A DNA stretch of 64,000 nucleotides from Candidatus Heimdallarchaeum aukensis (GTDB lineage: Archaea; Asgardarchaeota; Heimdallarchaeia; Heimdallarchaeales; Heimdallarchaeaceae). The DNA is taken from contig CP084166.1 of assembly GCA_021513695.1 (NCBI GenBank), positions 64,001 through 128,000 on the forward strand, given 5' to 3'. This document shows, piece by piece, positions 2,615 to 19,783 of this stretch (position 1 is its first letter; each line of letters opens with the position of its first letter). The notes beneath the pieces were generated by a model, which saw only the letters and a list, made by a program, of their open reading frames with translations, ran no database searches and was not told the origin of the DNA. The translations under genes were made by a program, and so were the position numbers.

Positions 2615-2709
2615 TTAATTATCGTATAGTACTCTTTAGAGTTCTGGGATTGGAATTGGGGCTATTATTTCCTGGAGTAAGTAATTGAAAATTGAAAAGA
2701 AGTGTAAAA

Positions 2710-5700
2710 ATGAAAAAAAGTAAAATTAAAGTTATTTCTATTATCGCTATTTTTCTTCTCATCTTGAACGTCTCGACGATATACGTTCAAGGTCAGATGG
2801 TAGGTAATGAAACTAAATTAATGATGACTGGAAATCCTACAGAAGTTTATGAAGATCAGATAGCGATTCTGTATGATCCATTTAATGATATGACAAGAGA
2901 ACTAGCAAATTCGATTTATGAGACTGTTCATATGTTTTATTCTAACGTGAAAATGGTCAAAGTTTTCAATTTAGATTCATTTAACAGAGCTTTTTATGAT
3001 GATGATTGGATTAAAATCTATGTTTTCGACTCTGACTTAAAAGGAATAAAATTTGCTGGTTGGACAATGTCATGGAGAAAACTAACTGGATACTACAATG
3101 TTTTCAAAGATACAAGGCACATTGGAGTTTATGGAAACTCATACAAGATGGGTCCATATCTTAAGACTGAAAACTGTTATATAGAAAATACAGAGATTCT
3201 AGATTATCGTATTGCTTACATTCATGTATTGTGGTCATTATATGATATTTTTACAGAAAAAGAAGATGAAATTCTTCAACAAATAGGAGAAAATTTCAAA
3301 TTAATAGCAATTAAATATTTTGGAGATTCATTTGAAGAAATAATGTCTGCCGAGTTTGATCCACAAGGATTAGGTGTTGTTGACCCAAAAAAGGCAGAAG
3401 AAAGATTACAAGATTCAATGGACCAATATCCAAAGAGATTAAATAAAGTTAATCCATATACGGGTGAGTTAGTTGATCCAACAGCAGAGATTGAAGGATT
3501 TAATCCTGTAATGGATATTAAACCCAAAGCAGCGATAGATGAAGATGACATTGTTTTAGGTGAGTTTCCGTTCTTATCTTCGATTCCTGGAGCTGCAGGT
3601 GACGTTATTAAAATAATTTTAGAGTTTATAGGTGTCGAGATACCAGAAGGTTTATTGACTGTAGGTAAAGAATATGGGGGGCAGATCGTCGCAATAATTA
3701 AAGAGATACCTAAAATTATTGGTTTCTTTAAGGATCCAAGTGCAAGTAGTGCTATTGAACTATTTTTTGATGTAGCAAAAGAAATGTTTCCCAGTATAGA
3801 AGAATATAAGCCCTACTTCGATATAGTAGTGAAAGCCCTATTTTCGATAAAAGATATTGCTTCAGGGGATCTTACTCCTTTAATTGATATATCAATGGAA
3901 CTTCTACGATTTATAATTCCTGATAGTGTAGGAGATTTTGTTGACGATGTTTTTGATGCTTTAAACATATCAAGTGCCCTTTCTGATATTATTAGTGGAG
4001 TTACTAATGTTGGTGATTATCTTAAGAGTTTTCTCAATAGGCAACTAATTACAAATTTAATGAAGAAATTTATTGAACAGACTTTAGATCTAGGGGGAGA
4101 ATCCCAAAAATGGATAGATACCATTTCAGAGATTATTATGATTGCTTATGAAATTGCCAGCACTCGAGATATGGATCACATAATAGCGGATGTCTTTCCA
4201 CGATTAGGAAAATTAGTTTACAAGAACATCTTAGATATGACCTATGATGAAAATGTAGAAAATACCTTCAAAGGAATTGCTGTTGCAATTAAGATGGGTT
4301 TTGGAGCTGCTGGAATCATTGATGTTAATCTTAAGGATTCATTTATGGATTTAATAGGCTTCTTCTTCCCTGACCTCGTTGAGACAGTTAATGATGTTAA
4401 ATTCTTTGTTTCAAGTATTAGGTCTCAAATTGATTCCTTTATGGATCTTGTTAAAGATGTTTCAGAAGGTAAAAATCTAGATGTAAACAACGTTCATGAC
4501 CAAATTATATCTTTAATTACTGAGCTTAGTTCATTATCAGGTCATTCTCTCGATGCAAATAAGATAAATGTACTCTCTCAAGCTGTTTTGATGGCTTTAG
4601 CTCTAATAAATGGTGATTTTGAAGCTTTAAGTGATACTAGCTGCCTAACAAGTCTAGTTGATGGATTTCTAGAACATTTTATTGGACTAGAAGAAGGTCC
4701 TAGAGAAATTGTACAAAAGGCAATAGAAGCTGGAGCAGCTATTTTACCTTTCATTACTGGGAAAAAGAGTTTGAAAAAATATATTATGGGAAGACTTGAA
4801 GATTTTGCTGACAAATTCAAGAATCCTGGAGAAATAATTGAAAAGGTTCTTTATTATTTCCTAAGCAAGTACAACGCAAGTACTCAACTTTACCAACTTA
4901 TTGGAAAAATTGTAGGAATAGTCATTGACATCTTTTCTGGAGGATTTGACTTTTCTGTTCAAAATGTTATTCAGACAATAATCTCAATGGCAGTTGTAGT
5001 TTTGAACATGTTAGATGTCAATATTCCGTTAGAAGCAATGTACAAGAGTTTTCAACTTCTATGGGAAGAGGGGCCAGAATTTTCCAATGTTGTAAAAGTA
5101 GTTCAAGATATTATGGGATTACTTGGAGGAAGCATTGACCCAACAATTAAAACTACTGTAGAAACAGTTCTTACTTTTCTAGGAGGAGCAAAGAATATCT
5201 TCAAAGATGGAATAAAATGGATAATGAACCAACTTGTAGGTTGGGCAGCAGGGCAGATTGCTAATTTATTAAATATGCTTACTGATAAATTAAATGAACT
5301 GTTCCAATCTCTTGGTGATTTGGTAAGTTATGATTCTGAATTCCCAATTGGTTTCGGAAGTTTTACTGCCTTCCAGATGCGAGTATTCTTCTCTTTAAGT
5401 CCTGGATTCGAAATTAACCCTGAACCAATTCAAGAGCTCATTATGAGTATGATTTTTGATGGGTCAAAGGTTTTTGATCTCGATAATATCGGAGAATTGT
5501 TTAAGCTTATCTTAAAATCAATTTCAATTATTCCTATTTTCAAAGCTGGACTTGAAATCAAAGCAGGAACGTCTGGAAAGAACGACTTAATGAAGATGCT
5601 CCTTGATTCTCTTGGTCTGGAACTTTCATTCTCTGGCTCTGCAGGACTAACACTGCAATTAATGAAGATTTCTAATGGTAAAATAAGTACTAGTGATTTC

Positions 5701-8700
5701 TTCAAAGTAATAGAATTCTTCTTTAAATTCCAGATATCAATAGCTAAAACATTCCCATTAGCAGAATTTCTAGGTCCAGGAGGAGCAGTTTTAGCTAAAG
5801 TTGCAGAATTCTTAGGTTTAGGTGGAATTTACCTAAAGATAGAGTTCTTTATAGCAATAGAAATTGTTAAACGATGTGAGACACCTACTCAGAAGGCTGC
5901 AGATATTTTAACAATTGTAATAGGAATAGGTGTTTCTGTAATTATTGATATCGACTTGGTAATTGTTGGAATAAAAATAACTATAGGTTTTGTAGTGACG
6001 CTGACGTTTATCCAGGACTTCTTGGCGGACGCACCGCTGCAAGTGATACTCGAGATAGAGTTCACTGTAGCGGTGAAACTGACGTTCTTGTTCGTCGACT
6101 GGACAGGAACAGCGTCATGGGGTCCAGATCCAATTTATCTGGCAGGAGGACCGGATGATGAAAGCACAAAAGACGAAATGAGCGGCTTGGACGCAGATGG
6201 GGATGGGTTACCTGATTCATATGAGTTAGGAGTTCCAGGAATGAAAGTAGACAGCGATGACAGTGATGGAGACGGTTTATCAGACCAATTCGAAGTGAAA
6301 ACGAGTAAAACAGACCCTATCACTGCAGATTCTGACGATGATGGTCTAGATGATTACATGGAATATGAAGTCTTAAAGACCAATCCTCTACAAGTAGATA
6401 GTGACTATGATGGTTTAACTGACTATGAAGAAGTTGTTATCTATGGAACTGATCCTAATGCACAAGATACAGATGGTGATCAATTAGATGACTATTACGA
6501 AGTAAATACTGCATGGAATATCACTGGAATAACTCCAAGTGTAAGATTTGTTACAATTGGGGGAGTAGAGTATAAAGATCATACTGATCCTCTTAATCCT
6601 GATACTGATGGTGATGGACTTCTAGATGGACAAGAAGGAGAATTTGGGGCTTATTATGGACCAGAATTGTATAACACTTCAGACCCAAGTTGGGATCCCT
6701 ATCCAATATTCTACAATCAAGGATATACTCATCCATTAGATAATGATACCGATGATGATTCTTATAAACAATTAGCAAATGGAACTATAGCTCCAGATCG
6801 TCAGTTCTTAATCTATATGTCTGATAAGGTAGAAATAGATGGACAATGGGTTATTTTCATTGAAGATGATGAATTAATGGGTAGAGTAGTTAGAACTAAC
6901 CCAATTAACCCTGATACTGATGGTGATTCAGCAGTAATGGATAAATCTTGGAGAGGTGATGGGGCTCCTCTTGACTTTTTCCTGAAGTCTGATGGTTACG
7001 AACTCTGGTTAGATCCGCCGACAGACCCGAATGACGCGGATATGGACGATGATGGATTAATTGACGGTTTAGAGGGTTGGGGTAATAAGATCAGTAATCA
7101 TACTGATCCTCGTAATCCTGATACTGATGGTGATGGACTTGGAGACCTGCAAGATATTCTACTCGGTTCGGATCCTTTGAACCCTGATAGTGATATGGAT
7201 GGAATTCTAGATGGTGAGGAGTTCTTCAAGTATGGAACTAACCCCGCTTATGAAGATACAGATCATGATGGGCTTTTGGATGGTGAGGAAGTTTATCTAT
7301 TCCACACAAACCCTCTGGCGGTAGATAGCGATGGAGATGGGATAGATGATGGAATGGAGGTATTAGTTTATGGTTCAGACCCGATGGATGAAGATATGGA
7401 TAACGACGGTCTAACAGACTGGGAAGAGATTTTCTACTACTTTACCAATCCTAGAGATTACGACTCAGATGATGATGGTCTAAGTGATGCTATGGAGGTT
7501 TTAGATGAATATGCTATATACACTGACCCATTGAATTGGGACTCTGATAATGATTCAATCACATATCCTAATGAAAACGGAAATTATACTTTCCCACTTT
7601 CTGATGGAGATGAAGTACTAATTTACGGAACTGACCCATTGACAAGCGATACTGATGGAGATGGATTGCACGATTCGTTTGAACTATATCTTGGTTCAGG
7701 TTTAATTTACAACTTTACTCCTGTACCTTTGGATCCGTTATCTAACGATACTGATGGAGATGGAATATATGATGCAAATGAATACCACATTGCAAATGTC
7801 TCTAACATCATTTATCCTTATGTTAGTTTTATCATCACCCAACCTTACAATACTTCTCCAGTAGATCCAGACTCTGATGATGACGGGATTATCGATGGAG
7901 ACGAAGTCTATGTATATGGAACTATGCCAGATATGAAAGATACAGATGGAGATGGACTAGACGATTGGAGTGAACTTAATATTATGTATACTAACCCTCT
8001 GAGTTCGGATACGGACAATGACTATCTGACAGATTGGGAAGAATGGTATGCGGGTTTTGAACATCCAGGATATCTACTTGATCCTAACGACCCTGATTAT
8101 GATAATGATATGCTGCCAGATGGGCCAGAGTTACTACTTTACGGTTCTAATCCTAATAATGCCTATGAGATTGATCCAAGTTCAGGAAAAGTCGATGGTC
8201 TGTTGATGGATTGGGACCATGATGGTCTAGAAGATGGTTTAGAGTTCTTTGTATACAACACTAGTTATGTAGCAGGAGGAGGAGTCACCCAGCCAGATAG
8301 TGATAGAGATGGTTTGATGGATGGTGCAGAAGTATATGTTCATGGTACAGTCCCCACGAATTGGGATACTGACAATGATACATATAGTGATGGATTAGAA
8401 GTGATGTTAGGACTAGATCCTCTTACATATACAACAGAAGAGGAATTTATAGCAGCTCTATCTGCAAATCAAGATATGCTAGAAGCAGGAGTACTAGTTA
8501 TCTCACCAATAGAAGGTGGAATTTACTCTCCTTCTAACTATACTTTCATCCTCTATAACGTGACAGAACTACTGGGCGTACAATATCAAATGAAGAAGAA
8601 CAAACAAGATTTCGGAGACAACATGAGTATGTACTATGATGATGTTTCAAGGACGTGGATAACTCAAGGAGATTATATTGGACCTGGAGATTATATCGTC

Positions 8701-8913
8701 AGATTTTATGTGACAAAACCTGATGGAAATGTTTCGTTTATAGAACGGACGTTTTATGTCGAAGGAAGTCCAGTTGTCTCTCTACCTTGGGTCTTTGCGG
8801 GAATAGGTGGGGGAGTAGCTATTGGTGTTGCTTCAACTTTGACCGTTTATGCAGGAAGAGCAGGAAAACTGCGATTCTTAAAGAATATCTTTAAAAGAGG
8901 AGGTGCTTCATAA
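2710..8913 (+). CDS. Giant (about 2068 aa) cell-surface protein with three parts. An N-terminal signal/anchor is followed by about 1100 aa of helical region of unknown function. About 25 thrombospondin-type-3-like calcium-binding repeats (DxDxDGxxDxxE) follow, ending in a C-terminal TM helix.
   Basis: The N-terminus MKKSKIKVISIIAIFLLILNVSTIYVQG is hydrophobic. Residues ~1150-1900 contain many repeats such as DADGDGLPDSYE, DSDGDGLSDQFE, DTDGDGLLDGQE, NPDTDGDGLGDLQD, DSDGDGIDDGME, DTDGDGLHDSFE and DTDGDGLDDWSE. The C-terminus VFAGIGGGVAIGVASTLTVYAG is hydrophobic and followed by basic residues. The track start at 2692 is TTG; the ATG at 2710 is more plausible. Confidence 0.8.
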   Translation: MKKSKIKVISIIAIFLLILNVSTIYVQGQMVGNETKLMMTGNPTEVYEDQIAILYDPFNDMTRELANSIYETVHMFYSNVKMVKVFNLDSFNRAFYDDDWIKIYVFDSDLKGIKFAGWTMSWRKLTGYYNVFKDTRHIGVYGNSYKMGPYLKTENCYIENTEILDYRIAYIHVLWSLYDIFTEKEDEILQQIGENFKLIAIKYFGDSFEEIMSAEFDPQGLGVVDPKKAEERLQDSMDQYPKRLNKVNPYTGELVDPTAEIEGFNPVMDIKPKAAIDEDDIVLGEFPFLSSIPGAAGDVIKIILEFIGVEIPEGLLTVGKEYGGQIVAIIKEIPKIIGFFKDPSASSAIELFFDVAKEMFPSIEEYKPYFDIVVKALFSIKDIASGDLTPLIDISMELLRFIIPDSVGDFVDDVFDALNISSALSDIISGVTNVGDYLKSFLNRQLITNLMKKFIEQTLDLGGESQKWIDTISEIIMIAYEIASTRDMDHIIADVFPRLGKLVYKNILDMTYDENVENTFKGIAVAIKMGFGAAGIIDVNLKDSFMDLIGFFFPDLVETVNDVKFFVSSIRSQIDSFMDLVKDVSEGKNLDVNNVHDQIISLITELSSLSGHSLDANKINVLSQAVLMALALINGDFEALSDTSCLTSLVDGFLEHFIGLEEGPREIVQKAIEAGAAILPFITGKKSLKKYIMGRLEDFADKFKNPGEIIEKVLYYFLSKYNASTQLYQLIGKIVGIVIDIFSGGFDFSVQNVIQTIISMAVVVLNMLDVNIPLEAMYKSFQLLWEEGPEFSNVVKVVQDIMGLLGGSIDPTIKTTVETVLTFLGGAKNIFKDGIKWIMNQLVGWAAGQIANLLNMLTDKLNELFQSLGDLVSYDSEFPIGFGSFTAFQMRVFFSLSPGFEINPEPIQELIMSMIFDGSKVFDLDNIGELFKLILKSISIIPIFKAGLEIKAGTSGKNDLMKMLLDSLGLELSFSGSAGLTLQLMKISNGKISTSDFFKVIEFFFKFQISIAKTFPLAEFLGPGGAVLAKVAEFLGLGGIYLKIEFFIAIEIVKRCETPTQKAADILTIVIGIGVSVIIDIDLVIVGIKITIGFVVTLTFIQDFLADAPLQVILEIEFTVAVKLTFLFVDWTGTASWGPDPIYLAGGPDDESTKDEMSGLDADGDGLPDSYELGVPGMKVDSDDSDGDGLSDQFEVKTSKTDPITADSDDDGLDDYMEYEVLKTNPLQVDSDYDGLTDYEEVVIYGTDPNAQDTDGDQLDDYYEVNTAWNITGITPSVRFVTIGGVEYKDHTDPLNPDTDGDGLLDGQEGEFGAYYGPELYNTSDPSWDPYPIFYNQGYTHPLDNDTDDDSYKQLANGTIAPDRQFLIYMSDKVEIDGQWVIFIEDDELMGRVVRTNPINPDTDGDSAVMDKSWRGDGAPLDFFLKSDGYELWLDPPTDPNDADMDDDGLIDGLEGWGNKISNHTDPRNPDTDGDGLGDLQDILLGSDPLNPDSDMDGILDGEEFFKYGTNPAYEDTDHDGLLDGEEVYLFHTNPLAVDSDGDGIDDGMEVLVYGSDPMDEDMDNDGLTDWEEIFYYFTNPRDYDSDDDGLSDAMEVLDEYAIYTDPLNWDSDNDSITYPNENGNYTFPLSDGDEVLIYGTDPLTSDTDGDGLHDSFELYLGSGLIYNFTPVPLDPLSNDTDGDGIYDANEYHIANVSNIIYPYVSFIITQPYNTSPVDPDSDDDGIIDGDEVYVYGTMPDMKDTDGDGLDDWSELNIMYTNPLSSDTDNDYLTDWEEWYAGFEHPGYLLDPNDPDYDNDMLPDGPELLLYGSNPNNAYEIDPSSGKVDGLLMDWDHDGLEDGLEFFVYNTSYVAGGGVTQPDSDRDGLMDGAEVYVHGTVPTNWDTDNDTYSDGLEVMLGLDPLTYTTEEEFIAALSANQDMLEAGVLVISPIEGGIYSPSNYTFILYNVTELLGVQYQMKKNKQDFGDNMSMYYDDVSRTWITQGDYIGPGDYIVRFYVTKPDGNVSFIERTFYVEGSPVVSLPWVFAGIGGGVAIGVASTLTVYAGRAGKLRFLKNIFKRGGAS

Positions 8914-11900
8914 TGCACGTAAAAAATAATTTAATTTGGAAGAAAGTATTAATCCTTTCTTTATTAGCTATAATGATTAGTTCACTAGTAGTAGGAATGC
9001 CCAATGCTCCGTTTGTTAATGCAGAAACTAATTCTGCACAATCTTTGCCTGATACAATAAGTTTAGAGGAAGCTAAACAACTAATGCAACAAATAAATGA
9101 AGGCAATGGTGGGGGCAACTTTGCTTCTGTTGAGCAACAAATCATTGATCCTGATTTAGATTTAAGTAGGTTATTAGCTGATAATCCTAATGAATATCAA
9201 CAAACATATCAACCTTGGAAATCTCAAGCTGCTGTTAGAAGTATAACCATCTCTGATGATTATGAATTTATGGCAGTAGGGGGAGGATATCTCTTTGACA
9301 ACGAAGTACAAGTATATCGATGGAACCCTGATATTAATCAATATGCTAAAGTTTGGGTGAGTGGAGATTCAGTTATTAAAGGCGATGTAATAGATGTCGA
9401 TTTTGGAGATACTGATAATAATGATTTCTTAGAAATTATTGCCACATCTTCTGACGGGTATTTCTACGTCTTTGAACAAGAACATATTTTTGACCCTGTA
9501 ACAAATACAGAAAATAGATTTGATCTTGTTTACACTAGTCCTTATTTAGGTCAAGTGTGGGGTGTAGAAGTTAATGATACAGATTTAGATCATCTAGACG
9601 ATATAATTGTCGTAAGTTGGGATCACAAAGTACATGTTTATGAATATTGGTTACACTCTGGTTATCCATTCAATTCAGAACATTGGATTACATATAGAGA
9701 AAAATGGCAAAGTCATGATACAGGTTATCATTTGTCTTCTTTAGTTGTTGGAGATACAAACTATAATGGTCTTCCAGACTTTGTTGTGGGAACGAGAGAA
9801 GGAGCTATTCTAGTTTTCGAAAATAATGGAACTATTTTAGATATCCAAGGACAACCTTATCCTCTTGCCCAAGATAATAGTTACAAATTAATTTATGCTG
9901 ATAATGAGTCAATTTGGAGACCAATTTACTCTATGGATATAGGTAATCTAGATAACTCTCCAGGAGATGAAGTAGTAATAGCTTCCTTTGCTTTTAATGG
10001 ATACATTCTAAGGTATGATGATTATAAAGGATATTACTTACAGAAGCTGATAAAAGACTTTGAATCTTGGACTTTGAAAGACTTTTATCCTGCAGATCAT
10101 TATGTAGATAATGGAACAGCAGGACAAAATGTATATTTCCAAGATCCAAATTATACAGGAACAACAGTTGAAGAGCCTATTTTGCAAAGTAATCCTGCAT
10201 TTATAAAAGGAAACTATCCCTATAATACTGGAGCTGCGCAAAATAATGATACATGTTATACTCATTTCGAATCTAATAGTACTCATGCTGCATGGGAAGT
10301 ATATGATTTTGGAGCAGATGAAGAGGGAACAGGAAATGGGAATGATGCTGCAGACATATTATTAAAATTCAAAACTTTACTATTTGATTACATATATAGA
10401 GATGATTTTATTATTTCTATCTCTCCAGACTATGAACATTGGGTAACTGTTGATCCTTCTCTTATTAATACATTTAATGTTGCCGCATCAACAAAATATC
10501 TCAGAATTAATGTAGATCCAATTTTAATTGAAAATAAATGGAATTACTTCAGATACATCAATGTAACAGTAATTTCTAATTCTACCAAAGATTATAACTT
10601 GTTATCTATAGAATTGCCTTATGTTTACCAAACTGTTTCAACAGCTTTAAGTGCTGAAGTGGGAACTTTAATGACCAGTACAGATACTAATGAAGAAGTT
10701 ATCCATGCAATTTTAGGAACAGTTGATGGCCGTCTTGTAGCTTTTAAATATGATGCCACTTCAGACTCGTTTGTTTTATCTTGGGATAGCTGGGTAGATG
10801 ATAGATTTACTGTTGGAATAAACATATGGGATATAGAACAAGTTAAGAATCTAGGCTCTATGCCTATGATATACGGAGTTACTGATTTGGAAACAGGTTA
10901 TCAACTTAGGATAAGTCCCTCTCCAGGAAGCCAAATTTCACAAGTGATTTTTGATTATACATTGTTCAATATTGATGGAGATTCTCCAGTTACAGGCGAA
11001 TTTGCAATTGTGGGTGGTAATGGAGATGTGTATTACTTTGATAATGGATTTGATTATGATGCTGCACAAACAACCCAATACTTCTCTTCGATCAACGATT
11101 ATGCAACTTATACAGGAAATATATCAATAGGTGCAGTAGAAATTGATACAGACTATTCCCAAGAAGAATTACTTATCGGTCATTACGATCCAAGTCTTTC
11201 TAATCAATACGATGACTTTGAAGATGATTCTTCAGATGTACTTCCAGCAGATATAAAAATATGGACACAAGTATCTTCAAAATATGAGTTAAATATATCA
11301 CTTTATAGTTTGGAAACAACTGGTCAACTTCGTGAAATATTAAAAAGTGCTCAATCAATTCCTTCAGCAGAAGGAGAGGATATTGATGGGGACGGAGATG
11401 TTGATATTGTTGTTTGTATTGAGAATCTATATCTACTTTGGAACATAGGAACACCAAGTAATCCAGAATTTATTTTGGATTCTGATTACTTTAAAGATAT
11501 AAATGAAGTAAAAGGAAGAAGACAATTCCTACATCCTCAATTTGTGGAATTTGAAATGGATGGAATTTATGATCTATCGATTGGCTACTCAAATAGAGTG
11601 GGAGCAACATATTTTGATAATTATGGAACTGCTCTTGCTCCTAAATGGGAAGAAAGAAAAGAGTTAGTTAACAACTTTGATGAAGAAGCTACAATAAATG
11701 TCTATAACTTTACTAGACCTCTCTGGATAAAATATTCAGAATTTGATGAATATTCTACTTTGTTATTAGAACATAATACAGGAAAGAGCTACTATGACAA
11801 GTACTACATATATACAATGCTAGATGATAGAAATGGTGACATGGTTTACTTCATGATTTCAAATAAAATACAAACTAGCTTCATGGTAGCATCTAATCCT

Positions 11901-14900
11901 ACTGTATCTAGAATCGAAGTTAACACCTTCAAATCTGAAGAATATGGAGGGATCTATAAGTGGAGGAATTTTGGATTTAGGGCAATTATAAGCTGGACGA
12001 CAGCAATAGATCTCTATAATTGGACTTTGACTGTAGATTCTGGAGATTTAGACCAAGATGGGAAAGGAGAAATTATAGTAGGAGACTATGATAGTAATGT
12101 ATACATCTTTGAGCATATGACTAATAATACTTACAAACGTGCATTCAGGTCTCCTGATATGCTCCAGTATGTTCCAACTGATGAAACACCTTATAGTTGG
12201 GACAAATTTGGAGGATATGAAGGAGAGTTTAATCAGACAATTTGGAACCATGTGAGCTATTTGCTTGTGAATGCTGATAGTGATGGAGACGGTTATCTTG
12301 AGTTAGCTGCTCTTGCAGGAACAGTTCTGTATGTATTTGAAGACACGGGAATAGATGATACATACTCATACATGTATAGACTAGATGTTTTAAGGAGTTC
12401 AGCAGGAGAATACTTGAAAGAAAATGGTTTTCTTACACCTTCTGGTTTAACATGGGCTCAAGATTTAGATTTAGATGGTTATGGAGAGTTCATAATAGCC
12501 TTTGAAAAACAAGTATTTGTTTATGAACCTTATTCTGGAACACTCTATGAACTGTTTGGTAATGTTGCATCTGATGACCCTGAAACAGGACACTATAATA
12601 TTTTAGGAAATGCTAGGGTATTTGATAATATTACAATAAATGGAATGTTATGTTCTGACATTAATGAAAATGGAAGAGAAGAACTTTTCATTTATGGTTC
12701 TGTAGATGTTGATCTTCTTGATTATGAAGAAGGATTTATTGTAATGATTGAAAGCATCGATCTAGGCTATAAGATAATCTGGCAAGGACCAACAGAGTTA
12801 GTTAGTAGAAATATTATTACAGACCTTGAAATTGCTGACCAGGACTATGATGGTTTCAAAGAATTGATCATTGGTGGAAGTAAAGGTGTAAGTATTTACG
12901 AATTTGTTGGAGGAACAACTGCTAGCTTTACTCAAGAGGGACTAATTACAGGACACATGAATTATCCCCAAATGGCAGCTCATTCACTATTTGGAAAATA
13001 TAGTTACAATGATGATTATGACTATAGAAAACAGAGGTCTCATGATATAAGACAGATAGTTTACAGTGGAGGTTCAAATAATCATTCATATATTTCTGCT
13101 TTTAGTGAGTATAACGATACAATGGGTGCATATGCTATATATCAAAAAGTAAGTCATGACGGAGTAAATTGGTTATCGAGCAAACTTATAGCTTATTGGT
13201 ATTCTGGTGGTTACATAAGTTTATACTTCCCCTCACTTACACAGACAAGTAATTACTCTCTCTGGTTAGCAGTTACTTGTAAATTTTATAGCGTAGGTTT
13301 AGGTTCCGTATATGGCGTTCTTCTATATCGTTCAGATGATTATGGGGCAAATTGGGTATTCGTAGATGGATTGGCTTCAGAATATATAGAAGAAGGTTCA
13401 ACAAATCCGATATATTCACCCACAATATTCCCAACAGGACCTAATTCAATAGGTTTAGTGTATATTTTCAGACCAAATAACACTTATTCAGAATTATACT
13501 ATGGAGGGTTATTTGATAATGGAACAGTAATACCTCAAACAAAAATCGAGGGTTTTGATGATTTCATGTTCAACGGTGTTGATGTTGATTCAAAACCTGA
13601 TAATAGTGGAGTATATGCTGCTGCTTTTAGTGCTAAAAAGTATATTGAAGAAAAAGATGATTACGATATCTGGTACTGTGAATTTAATTCAACCTATGGA
13701 TTAATACTTGAACCAAGAAGACTATTTACTTCATTCTCTGTTGAGCATACTCCTAGTATTACTTATGTCCACAATGATGCCTATTCTAGACTTCTAACAT
13801 TTGATTCTTCTGGATTACAAAAGGCGATGACTTTATCATATGGAATGGTTTCTGATGATGGAATACATTGGTCTGACCCAGATATACTTGCTGAATATCC
13901 AGAGTATATTATTCCTCCAACTAAGTCAAACCCCTATCCAAAGATATCTGGTTTCTCTAACAGTTGGAGTATATATGATCTAGGTTTCAGAGCTCCAAAA
14001 GTTGCTCCAACCTACGATGGTAAATTCATATTACTTACAAAATTTGATGCAACTATTGTCTACTTCTCATTCCCAATCTTCTATATATATTATTATAATG
14101 ACTACGTAAGCCAAATTTATCCATTGAACTTTACAAGTTTTGTAGGGTTAAACACTGTAACAGATCTTGCTGTTGGAGACTCGGATAGAGATGGTAGAAA
14201 AGAGATAATGATAGCTGATGGATATCGAGCAGAAATGTTTGAGTTACTTAACACAAAAAATAGGAAGCAACTTTATACAAGCAAATGGTATAGTCCTGAG
14301 CATGATAATCCTGTTTCCGATGTAACTATGTTTGACACAAATGGTAACGGTTTTCCTGAACTAATTTACAGCGTTCAAGGCGAAGACATTTATGTATATG
14401 ATGTTGTAAATATTCATTTACCAAAGGCAGATTTACATAAATTACAATCAACTACTTTAGACTTATCTGGTGCTGGAAAGGTTATAACTAGAATTAAATC
14501 AGATCTAAATGATGACGGAATAAATGACATGGTGGTTTATTGCGAAGGAGGAAAAATGTATGGAATCTTAGGTAATAACCTGTCAATTTTATGGACTTTG
14601 GAAGATTCATTAGTTTCTCCAAATTGGTTCCTCGAAGAATCAATTTATCATGGTAATAGTGCTCTAATTTTTGTAAATAGTAATGGAACAACTTTGTGGA
14701 TAGACAAGAAAACAGGACAAGTTATAACCTCTCTTGATTTAGGTGAAGGAAGTTATACCTTAAATCCAATAGCAACAATGCTTAACTATACAAAGGATAA
14801 CACCATGGACATTGCCATTAAAGGTGATGCTCCTGGACATATTTATCTCTTTGACGGGAATAATGGTTCGCTTCTAAAGGATCTCACTTTCGACACTGAA

Positions 14901-16922
14901 AGATATGTGCAAGAAATTGAAGTAGCACATGAGCAAGGAGAGGATTATCTCATAGTTTCTTATTATTGGATAGAATATAAAGACCTAGGTGGCGGTATTA
15001 TTGTATGGATATTCCATGGAAAGATTACTGCTTACAACTTATCTTCGTCCTCACTAGATCAAATATGGGAAGTTAACTCTTACTATGCTGGAGGATTTAG
15101 AGGGGCAAATTTAATAGTAGATGATATTAATGGAGATGGAGATTCAGAAATATATGCATTTGGTGGTGGAATAAAATTACTTGATGCTAATGGTACTGAA
15201 TATTGGCGGGCTTACAACTATTTCTACTCTTATGATGCTGTTATATTTGATATAAATGATGATGGAATTAAAGATATAATTACTTCTTCAGGACAGAATA
15301 GTAAAGTTACAGCTCTTGATGGAAAAGATGGAAATGTTACTTGGAGTAATATACCCACCCAGAATATCTATGACTTAGAGATTAGTGACCCAGAAGGAGA
15401 AGATCCAATCCTTTATCTAGCTAACTCTAGAACAGATTATCAAGGAATAATTTTCTTAAACATTAGGAATGGTGGGTTCTTAGGTTACTATTACGACACA
15501 AGTAGTGATTTTCTAAATGATAACGCATTGGTACCAACCACTGTGGATTCAAAACCTGCAGTCTTAGCAGTTGATTATGACGCAGAGAAAATTTATCAAG
15601 TTCAAATAAATGAAACAGAACAAGTTTATGAGCATGATATTATACCTAAACTCTCCTTTGATCAAATACTTAAAACTGGAAAGAATGTTAACCCCGATAC
15701 TGTTATTTATGACAATCTAAACGACGATGAGTATGTAGAAATTTTCTATATACAAAATGGAAATGAGTCATTCATCTATAATCCAATCAAAGGTGAGTAT
15801 ATTGAAGAATATACTATCCCTACAAATGGGAGTGTTCTTTATGCTTTCAAAGCTAATTTATCTGACACTTCATTCTATGATTCTATTTTTATAATTACCT
15901 CTGAATACAAGGTAGGTGTTTTAGATCTCACTTCAATGAGTTATAAAAAGATATTGGACTTATCAGGTTATGTAGATGAAATTGCTTCATATGCTTACTT
16001 GGATATTACTGAAGATGTATTTATTTTAGGTTTCTTTGACTATACAAAGAAAGCATGGTACGTAGGCGCATGGAATATTAAAGGAGAAGAGGTATTCTCA
16101 CCTATTTACCAAGGTTCTCATAAACCAGATCAAATAAATGCAGGTAAATTACTTGATAAAGCCACGTATGAAGAAGGAGCAGCTTTTGTAATAACAAGCT
16201 TTGGTGCATACATATATGCTTATGATCTTAAGGGAACACAACTAGCTATGATTAAACAAGATGGACCTGCAGGTTTCACAGCTTTAGGAGAACTGAAAAA
16301 AGGATTAGGTTTTGAGTTTGTTTACTATAGGTTTGGAGATAAATTCTACTGTTATAACCTTAATACCATGACTGATGAATGGTCATCTACTTTAAGAAAT
16401 GACAATGAACTATTATCTATTGCTGTAGGATATATTGATAGCTCTACTAATCCTGATTATGCTAAAGTATTTGTTTCGCAGAGCGGTACAGGAATTTATG
16501 CATTTGATGATGTAGATAAAGAGTTATGGTATCACAGACATAATTCTTTTGTTGCTAAATTCCTTCATGTGATCAATGATGAAGCTTTAGGCAAGGTTCT
16601 TCAAGTTACAGATTATCATAGAACATTCTACATCAATGGAACAACTGCTGAAGTTTTATATGCTACAAGTACCTTGATGAAACAAGTTCTTTGGGTAGGA
16701 ACATGGTCTTCTCCAGACTCTGCATATGACTCAATAGCATTCTTTGATGGAAACTCATTCTATAGTCGAGGAATAGATGTTTCTTCTTCAGGAGCTTCAA
16801 CAGTGCAAGATCATATGGAAATCTCTGCAGAAAGGTTAACAAGACTTAGTACTCCAATAATTATAATGATGAGTGTAATGGTAACCATAATCACTCTTGT
16901 CTTCAGAAAAAATAAAAGTTAA
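8913..16922 (+). CDS. Giant (2669 aa) integrin-alpha-like surface protein. It has multiple FG-GAP/VCBS-type beta-propeller blades, BNR/Asp-box motifs, PQQ-like blades and a C-terminal TM anchor.
   Basis: N-terminal signal: LILSLLAIMISSLVVG. Repeated blade motifs at about 60-aa spacing include FGDTDNNDFLEIIA, DTDLDHLDDIIVVS, GDTNYNGLPDFVVGT, DIDGDGDVDIVVC, DLDQDGKGEIIVGDYD, DSDGDGYLELAAL, DLDLDGYGEFIIA, DINENGREELFIYG, DQDYDGFKELIIGG, DSDRDGRKEIMIADG, DTNGNGFPELIYS, DLNDDGINDMVVY, DINGDGDSEIYAFGG and DINDDGIKDIITS. BNR-like motifs are RSDDYGANW and VSDDGIHWSDP. The C-terminus is TPIIIMMSVMVTIITLVFRKNKS. Its start overlaps the upstream stop as TAATG, and it is preceded by a GGAGGTG Shine-Dalgarno-like sequence. 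Confidence 0.8.
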   Translation: MHVKNNLIWKKVLILSLLAIMISSLVVGMPNAPFVNAETNSAQSLPDTISLEEAKQLMQQINEGNGGGNFASVEQQIIDPDLDLSRLLADNPNEYQQTYQPWKSQAAVRSITISDDYEFMAVGGGYLFDNEVQVYRWNPDINQYAKVWVSGDSVIKGDVIDVDFGDTDNNDFLEIIATSSDGYFYVFEQEHIFDPVTNTENRFDLVYTSPYLGQVWGVEVNDTDLDHLDDIIVVSWDHKVHVYEYWLHSGYPFNSEHWITYREKWQSHDTGYHLSSLVVGDTNYNGLPDFVVGTREGAILVFENNGTILDIQGQPYPLAQDNSYKLIYADNESIWRPIYSMDIGNLDNSPGDEVVIASFAFNGYILRYDDYKGYYLQKLIKDFESWTLKDFYPADHYVDNGTAGQNVYFQDPNYTGTTVEEPILQSNPAFIKGNYPYNTGAAQNNDTCYTHFESNSTHAAWEVYDFGADEEGTGNGNDAADILLKFKTLLFDYIYRDDFIISISPDYEHWVTVDPSLINTFNVAASTKYLRINVDPILIENKWNYFRYINVTVISNSTKDYNLLSIELPYVYQTVSTALSAEVGTLMTSTDTNEEVIHAILGTVDGRLVAFKYDATSDSFVLSWDSWVDDRFTVGINIWDIEQVKNLGSMPMIYGVTDLETGYQLRISPSPGSQISQVIFDYTLFNIDGDSPVTGEFAIVGGNGDVYYFDNGFDYDAAQTTQYFSSINDYATYTGNISIGAVEIDTDYSQEELLIGHYDPSLSNQYDDFEDDSSDVLPADIKIWTQVSSKYELNISLYSLETTGQLREILKSAQSIPSAEGEDIDGDGDVDIVVCIENLYLLWNIGTPSNPEFILDSDYFKDINEVKGRRQFLHPQFVEFEMDGIYDLSIGYSNRVGATYFDNYGTALAPKWEERKELVNNFDEEATINVYNFTRPLWIKYSEFDEYSTLLLEHNTGKSYYDKYYIYTMLDDRNGDMVYFMISNKIQTSFMVASNPTVSRIEVNTFKSEEYGGIYKWRNFGFRAIISWTTAIDLYNWTLTVDSGDLDQDGKGEIIVGDYDSNVYIFEHMTNNTYKRAFRSPDMLQYVPTDETPYSWDKFGGYEGEFNQTIWNHVSYLLVNADSDGDGYLELAALAGTVLYVFEDTGIDDTYSYMYRLDVLRSSAGEYLKENGFLTPSGLTWAQDLDLDGYGEFIIAFEKQVFVYEPYSGTLYELFGNVASDDPETGHYNILGNARVFDNITINGMLCSDINENGREELFIYGSVDVDLLDYEEGFIVMIESIDLGYKIIWQGPTELVSRNIITDLEIADQDYDGFKELIIGGSKGVSIYEFVGGTTASFTQEGLITGHMNYPQMAAHSLFGKYSYNDDYDYRKQRSHDIRQIVYSGGSNNHSYISAFSEYNDTMGAYAIYQKVSHDGVNWLSSKLIAYWYSGGYISLYFPSLTQTSNYSLWLAVTCKFYSVGLGSVYGVLLYRSDDYGANWVFVDGLASEYIEEGSTNPIYSPTIFPTGPNSIGLVYIFRPNNTYSELYYGGLFDNGTVIPQTKIEGFDDFMFNGVDVDSKPDNSGVYAAAFSAKKYIEEKDDYDIWYCEFNSTYGLILEPRRLFTSFSVEHTPSITYVHNDAYSRLLTFDSSGLQKAMTLSYGMVSDDGIHWSDPDILAEYPEYIIPPTKSNPYPKISGFSNSWSIYDLGFRAPKVAPTYDGKFILLTKFDATIVYFSFPIFYIYYYNDYVSQIYPLNFTSFVGLNTVTDLAVGDSDRDGRKEIMIADGYRAEMFELLNTKNRKQLYTSKWYSPEHDNPVSDVTMFDTNGNGFPELIYSVQGEDIYVYDVVNIHLPKADLHKLQSTTLDLSGAGKVITRIKSDLNDDGINDMVVYCEGGKMYGILGNNLSILWTLEDSLVSPNWFLEESIYHGNSALIFVNSNGTTLWIDKKTGQVITSLDLGEGSYTLNPIATMLNYTKDNTMDIAIKGDAPGHIYLFDGNNGSLLKDLTFDTERYVQEIEVAHEQGEDYLIVSYYWIEYKDLGGGIIVWIFHGKITAYNLSSSSLDQIWEVNSYYAGGFRGANLIVDDINGDGDSEIYAFGGGIKLLDANGTEYWRAYNYFYSYDAVIFDINDDGIKDIITSSGQNSKVTALDGKDGNVTWSNIPTQNIYDLEISDPEGEDPILYLANSRTDYQGIIFLNIRNGGFLGYYYDTSSDFLNDNALVPTTVDSKPAVLAVDYDAEKIYQVQINETEQVYEHDIIPKLSFDQILKTGKNVNPDTVIYDNLNDDEYVEIFYIQNGNESFIYNPIKGEYIEEYTIPTNGSVLYAFKANLSDTSFYDSIFIITSEYKVGVLDLTSMSYKKILDLSGYVDEIASYAYLDITEDVFILGFFDYTKKAWYVGAWNIKGEEVFSPIYQGSHKPDQINAGKLLDKATYEEGAAFVITSFGAYIYAYDLKGTQLAMIKQDGPAGFTALGELKKGLGFEFVYYRFGDKFYCYNLNTMTDEWSSTLRNDNELLSIAVGYIDSSTNPDYAKVFVSQSGTGIYAFDDVDKELWYHRHNSFVAKFLHVINDEALGKVLQVTDYHRTFYINGTTAEVLYATSTLMKQVLWVGTWSSPDSAYDSIAFFDGNSFYSRGIDVSSSGASTVQDHMEISAERLTRLSTPIIIMMSVMVTIITLVFRKNKS

Positions 16923-16978
16923 ACATTTTTTTCCTTTTTTTATTTTTTAAAATAGTAAATTTAAAATTTTATAAATTC

Positions 16979-17028
16979 AATTTTCTTCATTTTTGTCGGC
17001 TAATTATTCATTTTCTTCATTTTTGCGG
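16979..17028 (+). promoter_or_regulatory. Two copies of the direct repeat ATTTTCTTCATTTTTG(T)CGG, spaced 30 bp apart, upstream of the GTPase gene.
   Basis: 16981-16999 is ttttcttcatttttgtcgg and 17011-17028 is ttttcttcatttttgcgg. A TTATAAAA TATA-like element sits at about 17046-17056. Confidence 0.3.
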
Positions 17029-17113
17029 ATAGAATTACCAATTATCTTATAAAAAGCCATGCGACAGTTAGAATGATAGACCACTAAAAGGTCATAAACT
17101 TGGGGGTTTAAGA

Positions 17114-17791
17114 ATGTTGATGGTACCTACTCAGATGAAAAAAATAACCATACTAGGGACAACTGGTAGTGGAAAGACCACCTTTTTAGAAGCTTTATTT
17201 GGTGATTTTGAAAAAAATGATGTTAAAAGAGATTTGAGTAAAGAAAAAAGTTCAAATTGTGATTTTATTCCTTTGAAAAATAATACATTCAAAGAAAGTA
17301 CAACAACAATAAGTTTGAATGTCATTAATTCATTGCTTTATTTGACTACATTTAATCGATTAGGTTTAGAAAAGTTCGAAAATAGAGACAATATTGACTT
17401 TGAAAATGTTGAAGAGATTTATCAAATAGTTTTCAATGATCCTGCAGGACAAGAAAGATTTGATTTCATGCAAGAGATAGCAGTAAGAGGAGCAAACCTA
17501 GTAATTATAATGGCTGATGGCACAAATATCTCGAGTTTAGAAAAAGTAGTTCATTATATTTCGTTGGTAAAAATTGAAGAAAATCTATCTAAAAAGAAAA
17601 TACCGACTATTATTTTCATCAACAAATCTGATTTAAAGGAAAAGGGTGTTTATTTAGGAAAAAATGTAGCTGAGCAGATTATTTATTCAAGCATTCTTGA
17701 TGAGAAATTACTTATTTATGAAACTTCTAACCTTAAGAGAGAAACATATGATGAACCTTTGAGGATTATTTTTAACTATCTTTCATACTAA
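17114..17791 (+). CDS. Ras-superfamily small GTPase (Rab/Ras-like G motifs) with an unusually long insertion between the P-loop and switch II.
   Basis: G1 is GTTGSGKTT, G3 is DPAGQERF (compare Rab WDTAGQERF) and G4 is NKSD. About 87 residues separate G1 from G3, against about 40 in canonical Ras/Rab. An alternative start at 17135 (MKKITILG) is possible. Confidence 0.75.
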   Translation: MLMVPTQMKKITILGTTGSGKTTFLEALFGDFEKNDVKRDLSKEKSSNCDFIPLKNNTFKESTTTISLNVINSLLYLTTFNRLGLEKFENRDNIDFENVEEIYQIVFNDPAGQERFDFMQEIAVRGANLVIIMADGTNISSLEKVVHYISLVKIEENLSKKKIPTIIFINKSDLKEKGVYLGKNVAEQIIYSSILDEKLLIYETSNLKRETYDEPLRIIFNYLSY

Positions 17792-17843
17792 ATATTTTTT
17801 GTTGATGAAAAAACCTTTTATTTTATAAATCTATTTCTAAGTT

Positions 17844-18818: not shown

Positions 18819-18888
18819 TCTAAAACTAAAATATTTTTTCTCTTTTTTGGAAAAGGATTATAAGCTGTAAGGTTGAAGTAATTTAAGA

Positions 18889-19254
18889 ATGAGTAATATA
18901 AAGAAACTCACTTTTTCTGTAAATCAAAGTAGAAGAGTGATTCGTGCAGCAGAAAACAAGAAAATTGAACCTAAAGAATTGCTTAAAGGTTATGAGCTTA
19001 TGGTAAATACCCTCTTTAAGCATTGGAAAGAAGAATATGCTGAAACTATGGAAATTGACTTTCAAACATTTTTTTATGAAATAATGAAATATGCTGAAGT
19101 TAAATATAGATTAGAAAAGACCAAGTCTGATCTAAAAAAAATAAAAGAAATGTCAGAGTTGTTAAACGAAGCCATTGAAGAATATAAAGAAGATTATACA
19201 ATTTTGAAGGCTATAGAAGATAGTTTGAGAAATATGGGTGTTGAGTGGGTTTAA
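18889..19254 (+). CDS. Hypothetical small, charged, helical protein (121 aa).
   Basis: The ORF contains no recognisable motifs. It directly abuts the next ORF (TAAATG) upstream of the serine recombinase. Confidence 0.45.
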   Translation: MSNIKKLTFSVNQSRRVIRAAENKKIEPKELLKGYELMVNTLFKHWKEEYAETMEIDFQTFFYEIMKYAEVKYRLEKTKSDLKKIKEMSELLNEAIEEYKEDYTILKAIEDSLRNMGVEWV

Positions 19255-19704: not shown

Positions 19705-19745
19705 GAAAATTCACACTTTTTCTATTTGGAATAGTAATACTAAGT

Positions 19746-19753
19746 TTTATATT
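19746..19753 (+). promoter_or_regulatory. Candidate TATA box (TTTATATT) for the serine recombinase gene.
   Basis: It lies about 31-38 nt upstream of the ATG at 19784. Confidence 0.3.
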
Positions 19754-19783
19754 AAAAATAGAGAACCTTATTGCAAGGTCAAA

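What the first reader, a model, noticed from the sequence alone, without database searches (positions are those of the whole stretch)
16979..17791. Rab/Ras-like small GTPase with a ~45-aa insertion between the P-loop and switch II, preceded by a duplicated 19-bp element
G1 (GTTGSGKTT), G3 (DPAGQERF) and G4 (NKSD) are canonical. The G1-G3 spacing is about 87 aa, against about 40 in Ras/Rab, so the protein has an expanded switch-I/interswitch region. Upstream, ATTTTCTTCATTTTTG(T)CGG occurs twice, 30 bp apart (16981-16999 and 17011-17028). This is a candidate operator or promoter element. Small GTPases with eukaryote-like signatures fit an Asgard origin. The gene sits directly downstream of the integrin-like operon.
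Basis: partly seen in the sequence, partly recalled or inferred. Interest (0 to 1): 0.5.

Follow-up and report, generated by a model that had tools for sequence, protein, structure and literature searches.

The report
Rup3-type Heimdallarchaeial small GTPase gene
This gene encodes a small GTP-binding switch protein with two extra segments around its switch I region; it fits "Rup3", a group already described in Heimdall-type Asgard archaea whose function is unknown, and the short duplicated DNA upstream is a young, species-level tandem repeat with no evidence of a regulatory role.

Summary
ORF 17114-17791 (+, 225 aa) has canonical G1 (GTTGSGKTT), G3 (DPAGQERF) and G4 (NKSD), and also G2 (Thr65 in STTT) and G5 (ETSN). 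K21 to D109 is 88 residues, against 41 in H-Ras.

The "insertion" is two conserved expansions. About 27-30 aa lie between helix α1 and G2 and include an invariant Arg39; AlphaFold confidence there is low. About 20 aa lie between β2 and β3, modelled confidently as an extra strand plus a short helix.

The upstream repeat is real: period 30, 1.9 copies, 16975-17031, beyond chance. It occurs only in closely related strains, is absent from orthologues at 72% and 65% protein identity, and has no other copy in the window. A TATA-like box and a Shine-Dalgarno-like GGGGG lie downstream of it.

Verdict: a known family of unknown function; the operator claim is unsupported.

The parts
16926..16948 (+). 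Three oligo-T tracts (T7 16926-16932, T7 16935-16941, T6 16943-16948) directly after the stop codon (16920-16922) of the 2669-aa upstream gene. Likely archaeal terminator signals for that gene.
   Evidence: Read directly from the sequence. Termination at oligo-T tracts is established knowledge for archaea; the function here is inferred.
16975..17031 (+). Two-copy tandem repeat with a 30-bp unit. Exact 16-mer cores ATTTTCTTCATTTTTG lie at 16980-16995 and 17010-17025; with (T)CGG the copies run 16980-16999 and 17010-17028.
   Evidence: TRF score 93; beyond chance. Present in strains L002, L063, L064 and L065 with 0-3 changes in the 32 core bases. Missing in L001. Absent from the 72% and 65% orthologues.
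17047..17055 (+). TATA-box-like TTATAAAAA, about 63 nt upstream of the ATG. Candidate core promoter of the GTPase gene.
   Evidence: Window 17025-17057 is invariant in all 7 strain sequences. A similar CTTATAAAGG lies at a comparable distance in the 65% orthologue L006, and TATA-like boxes lie 35-65 nt upstream in other orthologues. No transcript data; inferred.
17102..17106 (+). GGGGG, a Shine-Dalgarno-like element 7 nt upstream of the ATG at 17114.
   Evidence: TTGGGG is conserved in L004, and GGAG-type motifs occur in L007 and L008. Inferred.
17114..17791 (+). Rup3-type Ras-superfamily small GTPase, 225 aa. NCBI's UJG40919.1 starts at Met3 (17120).
17156..17182 (+). G1 / P-loop GTTGSGKTT (residues 15-23).
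   Evidence: G15, G18, G20, K21 and T22 are invariant.
17201..17296 (+). Expansion 1 (residues 30-61) between helix α1 and G2. Contains invariant Arg39 and conserved Val37, Glu44, Phe51 and Phe59. Modelled with low confidence.
   Evidence: Alignments. AlphaFold pLDDT is about 50 over residues 30-67 with both the 31- and the 105-sequence alignment.
17297..17308 (+). G2 region STTT (residues 62-65). Thr65 is invariant and is the likely Mg2+/γ-phosphate-sensing threonine.
   Evidence: Its position just before β2 (residues 69-78) comes. The assignment is inferred.
17348..17407 (+). Expansion 2 (residues 79-98) between β2 and β3: an extra β-strand (83-87) and a short helix (88-93).
   Evidence: pLDDT about 86-91. 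Asn81 is conserved.
17438..17461 (+). G3 / switch II DPAGQERF (residues 109-116), with the catalytic-type Gln113.
   Evidence: G112, Q113 and R115 are invariant; D109 is at least 90% conserved.
17621..17632 (+). G4 NKSD (residues 170-173), the guanine-specificity motif.
   Evidence: K171 and D173 are invariant.
17720..17731 (+). G5-like ETSN (residues 203-206), equivalent to Rab ETSAK.
   Evidence: aligned with Rab11 ETSAL.

Best explanation
The ORF encodes a guanine-nucleotide-dependent molecular switch of the Ras superfamily. It fits Rup3, a group specific to Heimdallarchaeia.

Shown:
- All five G motifs are present and conserved.
- The core is a Rab-like G-domain fold.
- Two family-wide expansions flank the G2 threonine.
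- The family is a small, sharply delimited set of proteins of about 230 aa, found almost only in Heimdallarchaeia.
- The protein has no cysteine-based C-terminal lipid anchor and only seven residues before β1, leaving no room for an N-terminal amphipathic helix.
- It has no gene partner conserved across the family.

Inferred:
- It binds and hydrolyses GTP.
- The conserved but flexibly modelled α1-G2 expansion acts as an enlarged switch I, whose shape depends on the bound nucleotide. Together with the β2-β3 extension it would form a Rup3-specific surface for effectors or regulators.
- The invariant Arg39 may contribute to catalysis in cis.
- The gene is transcribed alone from a TATA-like box at 17047-17055 and translated from a Shine-Dalgarno-like GGGGG.
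- The 30-bp tandem duplication upstream (16975-17031) is most likely a recent slippage product in the T-rich spacer, lying between the upstream gene's oligo-T terminators and this promoter. It is not an established control element.
For: Identity and family:
- The protein is 100% identical to UJG40919.1.
- 136 homologues of about 230 aa carry the same expansions. Named ones are Heimdallarchaeaceae or Kariarchaeaceae.
- Conserved residues inside both expansions: V37, R39, E44, S62, T64, T65, N69 and N81 are invariant across 31 sequences, and R39 and T65 remain invariant across 105.
- An exhaustive HMM search of 1.84 billion representatives gives 12 full-length single-stretch hits (E 1e-53 to 1e-99). 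After a sharp gap, other GTPases align in two stretches broken at the expansion.

Structure:
- Two AlphaFold models (pLDDT 79 and 81.5, pTM 0.77 and 0.78) give the same topology.
- The PDB profile search puts Rab11, Ypt7 and Rab7 on top.

Context and promoter:
- Variable neighbours and a 59-350 nt upstream spacer occur in nine contexts.
- TATA-like and Shine-Dalgarno-like elements are seen, and 17025-17057 is invariant among strains.
Against: - The link to Rup3 rests on matching the published description. The accession tables are truncated in the held supplement, so UJG40919.1 and OLS30588.1 could not be looked up.
- No biochemical data exist for any member.
- The α1-G2 expansion is modelled at pLDDT of about 50, so its fold and the location of Arg39 relative to the nucleotide are unknown. 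No coordinates were available for measuring distances.
- One hit is labelled Odinarchaeota and one Methanobacteriota. Either the MAGs are mislabelled or the family is slightly wider than Heimdallarchaeia.
- The repeat cores are about as conserved between strains (1/32 and 3/32 changes) as the promoter and 5' UTR stretch (4/89 and 8/89), so neutrality is not demonstrated.
- Promoter and transcription-unit assignments have no transcript evidence.
Confidence: 0.8

Rival explanations
1. It is a genuine archaeal Rab/RasL-type GTPase, a direct relative of eukaryotic Rabs working at membranes, that merely acquired loops. The eukaryote-like reading would then be appropriate.
For: - G3 D-AGQERF, G4 NKxD and G5 ETS- resemble Rab motifs.
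- Most of the nearest non-family hits retrieved from the 1.84-billion-protein library are eukaryotic-type Rabs (WDTAGQERF motif and C-terminal cysteines).
- P0138 combines a Rab-like N-terminal half lacking the expansions with a Rup3-like C-terminal half.
Against: - Only the C-terminal half (from about residue 99) aligns to Rabs.
- The published tree separates Rup3 from RasL/Rab and reports no eukaryotic relatives.
- There are no C-terminal cysteines for prenylation (the protein ends NYLSY).
- By inspection, β3 lacks the Rab Trp (IVFND against QIWD) and the RabF-type motifs are not kept.
- A COG2229-type prokaryotic GTPase (P0158) scores as high as the Rabs (67 bits).
Confidence: 0.08
2. It is a derivative of the prokaryotic MglA / COG2229 (CvnD-like "ATP/GTP-binding protein") lineage. 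That would make it a polarity- or signalling-type GTPase with an intrinsic arginine finger and a roadblock-type GAP.
For: - The P-loop GxxGxGKTT and the switch II motif GQERFDFM(Q/W)E are shared with P0158, whose best Pfam hit is ATP_bind_1.
- Pfam ATP_bind_1 also hits the window protein weakly (29.6 bits), and NCBI names one member "ATP/GTP-binding protein".
- Arg39, upstream of G2, is invariant. MglA uses an intrinsic Arg in switch I (Miertzschke et al. 2011, PMC3199381, listed; the detail is from my own knowledge).
- P0150 has a similar expansion with G3 GTPGQ, and its relatives are COG2229-like.
Against: - Asp109 of G3 is conserved in at least 90% of members (MglA1 has Thr there).
- No gene with a roadblock, MglB or longin Pfam hit was recorded next to the gene in the nine contexts examined.
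- The published analysis treats Rup3 as distinct from MglA1 and MglA2-5.
Confidence: 0.1
3. The duplicated 16-20-mer is a functional cis-element. It could be two in-phase binding sites for a transcription factor, acting as an upstream activating or operator site that controls the GTPase gene. It could instead be a recombination hotspot or site.
For: - There are two exact 16-mers spaced 30 bp apart (about three helical turns), ending 18 bp upstream of the TATA-like box.
- The repeat is beyond chance.
- It is retained in three distinct strain sequences with 5-7% divergence, against 11-17% in the adjacent T-tract region.
- Two independent assemblies break exactly at 17025, the end of the second core: the L001 deletion of 16810-17024 and the start of contig L003.
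- A serine recombinase gene lies 2.6 kb downstream.
Against: - No repeat or similar motif is found in the orthologous spacers of L004 (72% identity), L006 (65%) or more distant members.
- There is no further copy of the 11-mer core in 64 kb.
- Copy 2 has already lost two C's in L065.
- Variant L001 keeps the promoter-proximal 89 bp but lacks both copies.
- T-rich two-copy tandem repeats are typical slippage products, and assemblers often break at repeats.
- The 19-mer gave only single matches in 49 unrelated, almost all bacterial, genomes in 596 Gb.
Confidence: 0.15

Closest known systems
[quoted passage not shown]
   Same: Heimdallarchaeia-restricted small GTPase of about 230 aa, with sequence expansions both between G1 and G2 and between G2 and G3. 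It stands apart from other Ras-superfamily groups, and its function is unknown (searches compared).
   Different: Nothing found to differ. The only gap is that the authors' accession list could not be read to confirm that UJG40919.1 or its orthologue OLS30588.1 is included. Two hits carry non-Heimdall labels.
Rab GTPases (eukaryotic Rab6, Rab11, Rab7/Ypt7; Thorarchaeota Rab, PDB 7EZB)
   Same: Closest solved folds and sequences. Shares G3 D-AGQERF with the catalytic Gln, G4 NKxD, G5 ETS-, and the arrangement of α2 to α5.
   Different: About 47 extra residues between the P-loop Lys and the G3 Asp, split into two conserved expansions. No prenylatable C-terminal Cys. P-loop GTTGSGKTT instead of GDSGVGKS/T. 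No Trp in β3. Published phylogeny places Rup3 outside the Rab/RasL clade.
MglA and COG2229/CvnD-like prokaryotic small GTPases
   Same: GKTT P-loop, a GQERFDFM-type switch II (P0158), weak PF03029 similarity, and a conserved Arg upstream of G2 that could act in cis.
Heterotrimeric G-protein α subunits (insertion between G1 and G2)
   Same: Extra sequence is inserted between helix α1 and the G2 threonine, and it contains an invariant arginine.

Membership tests
Ras superfamily small GTPase | G1 GxxxxGK[ST], G2 Thr, G3 DxxG(Q), G4 NKxD and a G5 motif in the correct order | tested here: met
   Residues 15-22, T65, 109-113, 170-173 and 203-206. These are invariant or nearly invariant in 105 sequences. 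TIGR00231 small_GTP scores 47.9 bits against a cutoff of 42.5, and Pfam Ras scores 43.3 against a cutoff of 21.6.
Ras superfamily small GTPase | Six-stranded α/β G-domain fold | tested here: met
Rup3 | Sequence expansion between G1 and G2 | tested here: met
   39 residues lie between the end of α1 (residue 29) and the start of β2 (residue 69), against about 12 in Ras/Rab. The expansion is conserved family-wide.
Rup3 | Sequence expansion between G2 and G3 | tested here: met
   A 20-residue β2-β3 connection with an extra strand (83-87) and a helix (88-93), in place of a tight hairpin.
Rup3 | Restricted to Heimdallarchaeia | tested here: inconclusive
   Named hits are Heimdallarchaeaceae, Kariarchaeaceae, Heimdallarchaeota or "Asgard group". 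One is labelled Odinarchaeota and one Methanobacteriota, and MAG taxonomy could not be checked.
Rup3 | Monophyletic and separated from the other Ras-superfamily groups | tested here: inconclusive
   No tree was built. In support, there is a sharp score gap in the exhaustive HMM search: 12 representatives at E of 1e-53 or lower, then fragments, then other GTPases at E of about 1e-13 or weaker aligned in two pieces.
Rup3 | Sequence listed as Rup3 by the authors (Tables S3/S5) | not testable with these tools
   The supplementary table is truncated as stored. Neither Rup3, UJG40919 nor OLS30588 was found in it.
Rab family | C-terminal Cys motif for geranylgeranylation | tested here: not met
   The C-terminus is ...IIFNYLSY, with no Cys. 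The family consensus also lacks one.
Rab family | Canonical G1-G3 spacing and Rab-specific (RabF) motifs such as IGVDF and KLQIWDTAGQE | tested here: not met
   Rab profiles align only from about residue 99 onward. β3 reads YQIVFNDPAGQE, without Trp. The RabF comparison was made by inspection.
MglA | G3 with Thr replacing Asp (TxxGQ, MglA1), and an adjacent mglB/roadblock gene | tested here: not met
MglA | Intrinsic arginine finger in switch I | tested here: inconclusive
   Arg39 is invariant, but it lies in a region modelled at pLDDT below 50, so its proximity to the nucleotide is unknown.
Arf / ArfR | N-terminal amphipathic helix and an Arf-type G3 (WDxGGQ) | tested here: not met
GPN-loop GTPase (PF03029) | Gly-Pro-Asn loop between G2 and G3 | tested here: not met
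   There is no GPN tripeptide in the protein. The PF03029 hit of 29.6 bits covers only residues 100-177.

The most novel reading that the evidence does not exclude
The conserved α1-G2 expansion of Rup3 could be a built-in regulatory module. Its invariant Arg39 would reach the nucleotide as a cis arginine finger, as in Gα or MglA. That would make Rup3 a self-timed, GAP-independent switch unique to Heimdallarchaeia. In Heimdallarchaeaceae it might act together with the syntenic pair of small proteins (121/122 aa and 149 aa) and the serine recombinase downstream. In the same speculative reading, the 30-bp repeat that ends at the recurrent 17025 breakpoint would be a recombination or regulator site rather than slippage debris.
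Probability: 0.12. Interest if true: 0.55.

Novelty: already known. Interest (0 to 1): 0.28.

Why it matters
Heimdallarchaeia are the closest known archaeal relatives of eukaryotes, and their many small GTPases are read as precursors of eukaryotic trafficking switches. This gene is a clean, full-length example, from a closed genome, of the one prominent Heimdallarchaeia-specific GTPase group that eukaryotes did not inherit.

The work here adds some detail to the published description:
- where the two expansions sit in the fold;
- which of their residues are invariant (Arg39, Thr65);
- that the family is tiny and sharply bounded in 1.84 billion proteins;
- that it has no gene partner conserved across the family.

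It does not reveal the function. The upstream repeat has no demonstrated significance.

Tried and rejected
1. Genome-wide count of the 19-mer. The H. aukensis genome is therefore not in that collection and the test says nothing. Only the 64-kb window could be counted.

2. Confirming Rup3 membership by accession. The supplement tables are truncated as stored, and the journal version is not held.

3. The afdb50 fold library was unavailable.

4. A deeper alignment (105 sequences) did not improve confidence in the α1-G2 expansion. No model coordinates were exposed, so the distance from Arg39 to the P-loop could not be measured.

5. Search for a GAP/GEF-like neighbour. No gene with a roadblock or longin Pfam hit is recorded next to the GTPase in the nine contexts examined. 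The 156-aa genes flanking P0100 and the 121/122- and 149-aa genes of Heimdallarchaeaceae have no significant Pfam, PDB or PHROG hits. My guess that the 121-aa protein is a ribbon-helix-helix protein is unsupported.

6. Rfam scan of 16800-17900 found only chance-level matches, with E above 0.5.

7. P0150, a distant hit with a similar expansion, turned out to be an orphan whose relatives lack the expansion. It does not extend the family.

8. GPN-loop and Gα-like readings were rejected on motif grounds.

9. The sigma-70 promoter and terminator scanner was not used, because it does not apply to archaea.

Full report
**1. What is in the sequence**

ORF 17114..17791 on the + strand encodes 225 aa.
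- G1 GTTGSGKTT, residues 15-23.
- G3 DPAGQERF, residues 109-116.
- G4 NKSD, residues 170-173.

Lys21 to Asp109 is 88 residues, against 41 for K16 to D57 in H-Ras (textbook knowledge). The claim of about 45 extra residues is therefore correct. It is the only small GTPase in the 64-kb window.

**2. Source and family**

The protein is 100% identical to UJG40919.1, a "GTPase domain-containing protein" of Candidatus Heimdallarchaeum aukensis on a 3.08-Mb contig. NCBI starts it at Met3 (17120).

A search of 5.8 billion proteins found 136 homologues:
- Nearly all are 221-260 aa.
- Heimdallarchaeaceae members are 57-96% identical to the window protein.
- Kariarchaeaceae and other Heimdallarchaeota members are 40-47% identical.
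- One hit is labelled Odinarchaeota and one Methanobacteriota.

The extra length is conserved in all of them. V37, R39, E44, S62, T64, T65, N69 and N81 are invariant across 31 diverse members. R39 and T65 remain invariant across 105 sequences. This is a family hallmark, not a private insertion.

An exhaustive HMM search of 1.84 billion cluster representatives shows how discrete the family is:
- Twelve representatives align full-length in one stretch, at E 1e-53 to 1e-99.
- After a large gap come fragments.
- Then come other GTPases at E of about 1e-13 or weaker, aligned in two stretches broken at the expansion.

Most of those next-best hits are eukaryotic-type Rabs, with WDTAGQERF and C-terminal CC/CxC. 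One is a COG2229-type prokaryotic GTPase, P0158, which scores equally.

**3. Structure**

Two AlphaFold2 runs, with 31 and 105 sequences, gave mean pLDDT 79 and 81.5 and pTM 0.77 and 0.78. They have the same topology:
- β1 at 8-15 and α1 at 21-29.
- A poorly defined stretch at 30-67 (pLDDT about 50), with short helices near 41-47 and 58-61.
- β2 at 69-78.
- An extra strand at 83-87 and a helix at 88-93 (pLDDT about 86-91).
- β3 at 99-109, followed by a canonical α2-β4-α3-β5-α4-β6-α5.

The "insertion" is therefore two expansions. About 27-30 aa lie between α1 and G2, and about 20 aa lie between β2 and β3.

Structure searches point to Rab and Ran:
- Foldseek gives Rab3B, Rab6B, Ran, Rab4 and Rab8.
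- Sequence profiles against the PDB give Rab11, Ypt7 and Rab7, but only from about residue 99 onward.
- Pfam gives Ras (43 bits, residues 100-214), Roc, GTP_EFTU, and weak hits to ATP_bind_1 and Arf.

**4. What is already known**

Vargová et al. (bioRxiv 10.1101/2024.02.28.582541) describe "Rup3". [quoted passage not shown] Their Fig. [quoted passage not shown]

Every feature that could be tested here matches. The accession lists are truncated in the stored supplement, so membership is inferred from features and not confirmed by identifier. No other paper in the library mentions Rup3 or ascribes it a function.

**5. Rab-like or MglA-like?**

- Asp109 is retained in G3.
- MglA ranks low in the fold search.
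- None of the nine gene neighbourhoods examined has a gene with a roadblock or MglB Pfam hit.

The family is not a Rab either:
- It has no prenylation cysteines.
- It has no Trp in β3.
- Only the C-terminal half aligns to Rabs.
- The published tree keeps it separate.

A few features do point toward the COG2229/MglA2-5-like prokaryotic lineage. These are the GKTT P-loop, the switch II motif GQERFDFM, weak PF03029 similarity, and an invariant Arg upstream of G2. The sister group therefore remains unresolved.

**6. Genomic context**

The gene follows two abutting giant ORFs: 2692..8913 (2073 aa) and 8913..16922 (2669 aa, faint FG-GAP hits). That linkage holds only for the window and the 72%-identical orthologue (L004/L005).

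In other Heimdallarchaeaceae (L006, L061) the upstream gene is NAD kinase. A downstream block is shared: GTPase, a 121/122-aa gene, a 149-aa gene, a serine recombinase, an IF-2B-like gene, a hydrolase and NIPA. In H. aukensis a fused double ferritin-like gene (17844-18818) has been inserted after the GTPase. In strain L065 the downstream genes are different and include a PIN-domain gene.

Kariarchaeaceae and other distant members have unrelated neighbours. The family therefore has no conserved partner, and the gene looks monocistronic. Supporting this, there is a spacer of 59-350 nt upstream in every context. TATA-like boxes lie 35-65 nt before the start codon, and Shine-Dalgarno-like purine runs lie 7-10 nt before it.

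In the window the candidates are TTATAAAAA at 17047-17055 and GGGGG at 17102-17106. The stretch 17025-17057 is invariant in all seven strain-level sequences.

**7. The duplicated element**

The element is real. Exact 16-mers lie at 16980-16995 and 17010-17025. They are part of a two-copy 30-bp tandem repeat at 16975-17031 (TRF score 93). The repeat is unlikely by chance: 1 in 5000 mononucleotide shuffles and 37 in 5000 Markov simulations reach it.

It lies between the oligo-T tracts that follow the upstream stop codon (16926-16948) and the TATA-like box.

Conservation across strains and orthologues:
- Identical in L063 and L064.
- One core change in L002 and three in L065.
- Missing from JGI contig L001, which lacks window 16810-17024. 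NCBI contig L003 begins exactly at 17025. This could be a real deletion or an assembly break at the repeat.
- Orthologous spacers at 72% and 65% protein identity have no such repeat.
- The 11-mer core occurs nowhere else in the window.

Its divergence between strains (5-7%) is similar to that of the promoter and 5' UTR stretch (4.5-9%) and lower than that of the T-tract region (11-17%). Selection can therefore be neither shown nor excluded from these few sequences.

The requested genome-wide count could not be done, because the source genome is not in the searchable collection. The most economical reading is a recent slippage duplication in a T-rich spacer. I give a regulator-binding or recombination role about 15%.

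**8. Mechanism**

Shown:
- A complete, conserved GTPase active site.
- A Rab-like core.
- Two conserved expansions flanking G2.
- No lipid anchor and no N-terminal helix.
- No conserved operon partner.

Inferred:
- The protein is a GTP/GDP switch.
- Its enlarged switch I (residues 30-67: conserved, yet not confidently folded without nucleotide or partner), together with the β2-β3 extension, forms a nucleotide-dependent interaction surface specific to Rup3.
- The invariant Arg39 may assist catalysis in cis. This is speculative, because its position in the model is unreliable.

**9. Verdict**

The protein fits the Rup3 group, which is already published and still of unknown function. The claim that the repeat is an operator or promoter is unsupported. 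Novelty: already known. Interest is modest.

Noticed in passing
window 16810-17025; L001 about 5912; L003 position 1: Two independent assemblies have a breakpoint exactly at window 17025, the last base of the second 16-mer core. JGI contig L001 lacks window 16810-17024, which covers the 3' end of the giant gene, the T-tracts and both repeat copies. NCBI contig L003 starts at 17025. This may be a real deletion polymorphism or an assembly break at the repeat.
   Followed up: partly
window 17114-20506; L006 6001-8366; L061 5001-7353: In Heimdallarchaeaceae the GTPase is followed, on the same strand, by a syntenic block. It comprises a 121/122-aa gene, a 149-aa coiled-coil-like gene (stop and start overlap or abut) and a serine recombinase carrying the catalytic-type motif YARTSTADQ. 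Next come IF-2B-like, hydrolase and NIPA genes. The two small proteins have no Pfam, PDB or PHROG match. The block is absent next to the more distant family members.
   Followed up: partly
window 17844-18818: A 324-aa protein made of two fused ferritin-like domains (Pfam Ferritin 6e-45, two stretches) sits between the GTPase and the 121-aa gene in H. aukensis-like strains. It is absent at this position in other Heimdallarchaeaceae, so it is a lineage-specific insertion into the syntenic block.
   Followed up: no
L065 2214-3678: A strain whose GTPase is 94% identical has a different downstream neighbourhood: a PIN-domain gene and two unknown genes on the opposite strand, in place of the ferritin gene. 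The rearrangement lies immediately 3' of the GTPase gene.
   Followed up: no
window 2692-16922: Two giant ORFs abut with overlapping stop and start at 8913: 2073 aa (TTG start) and 2669 aa. The second has only faint FG-GAP/β-propeller hits and a C-terminal hydrophobic segment. It diverges faster between strains (82-88% nucleotide identity, with indels) than the genes downstream (92%).
   Followed up: no
proteins P0138 and P0150 (metagenomic; not in the window): P0138 (179 aa) combines a Rab-like N-terminal half lacking the expansions with a C-terminal half close to Rup3. It may be an intermediate or a chimera. P0150 (228 aa, a singleton on a 2.5-kb contig) has a G1-G3 expansion of similar length, but its G3 is GTPGQ and its relatives are unexpanded COG2229-like GTPases.
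   Followed up: partly
L062 4531-5001 and 7287-7757: In a distant member's locus (P0100), an unannotated 156-aa gene ends where the GTPase gene starts, and a second 156-aa gene lies 1.6 kb downstream. Neither has a Pfam hit. They were not tested as possible partners.
   Followed up: no
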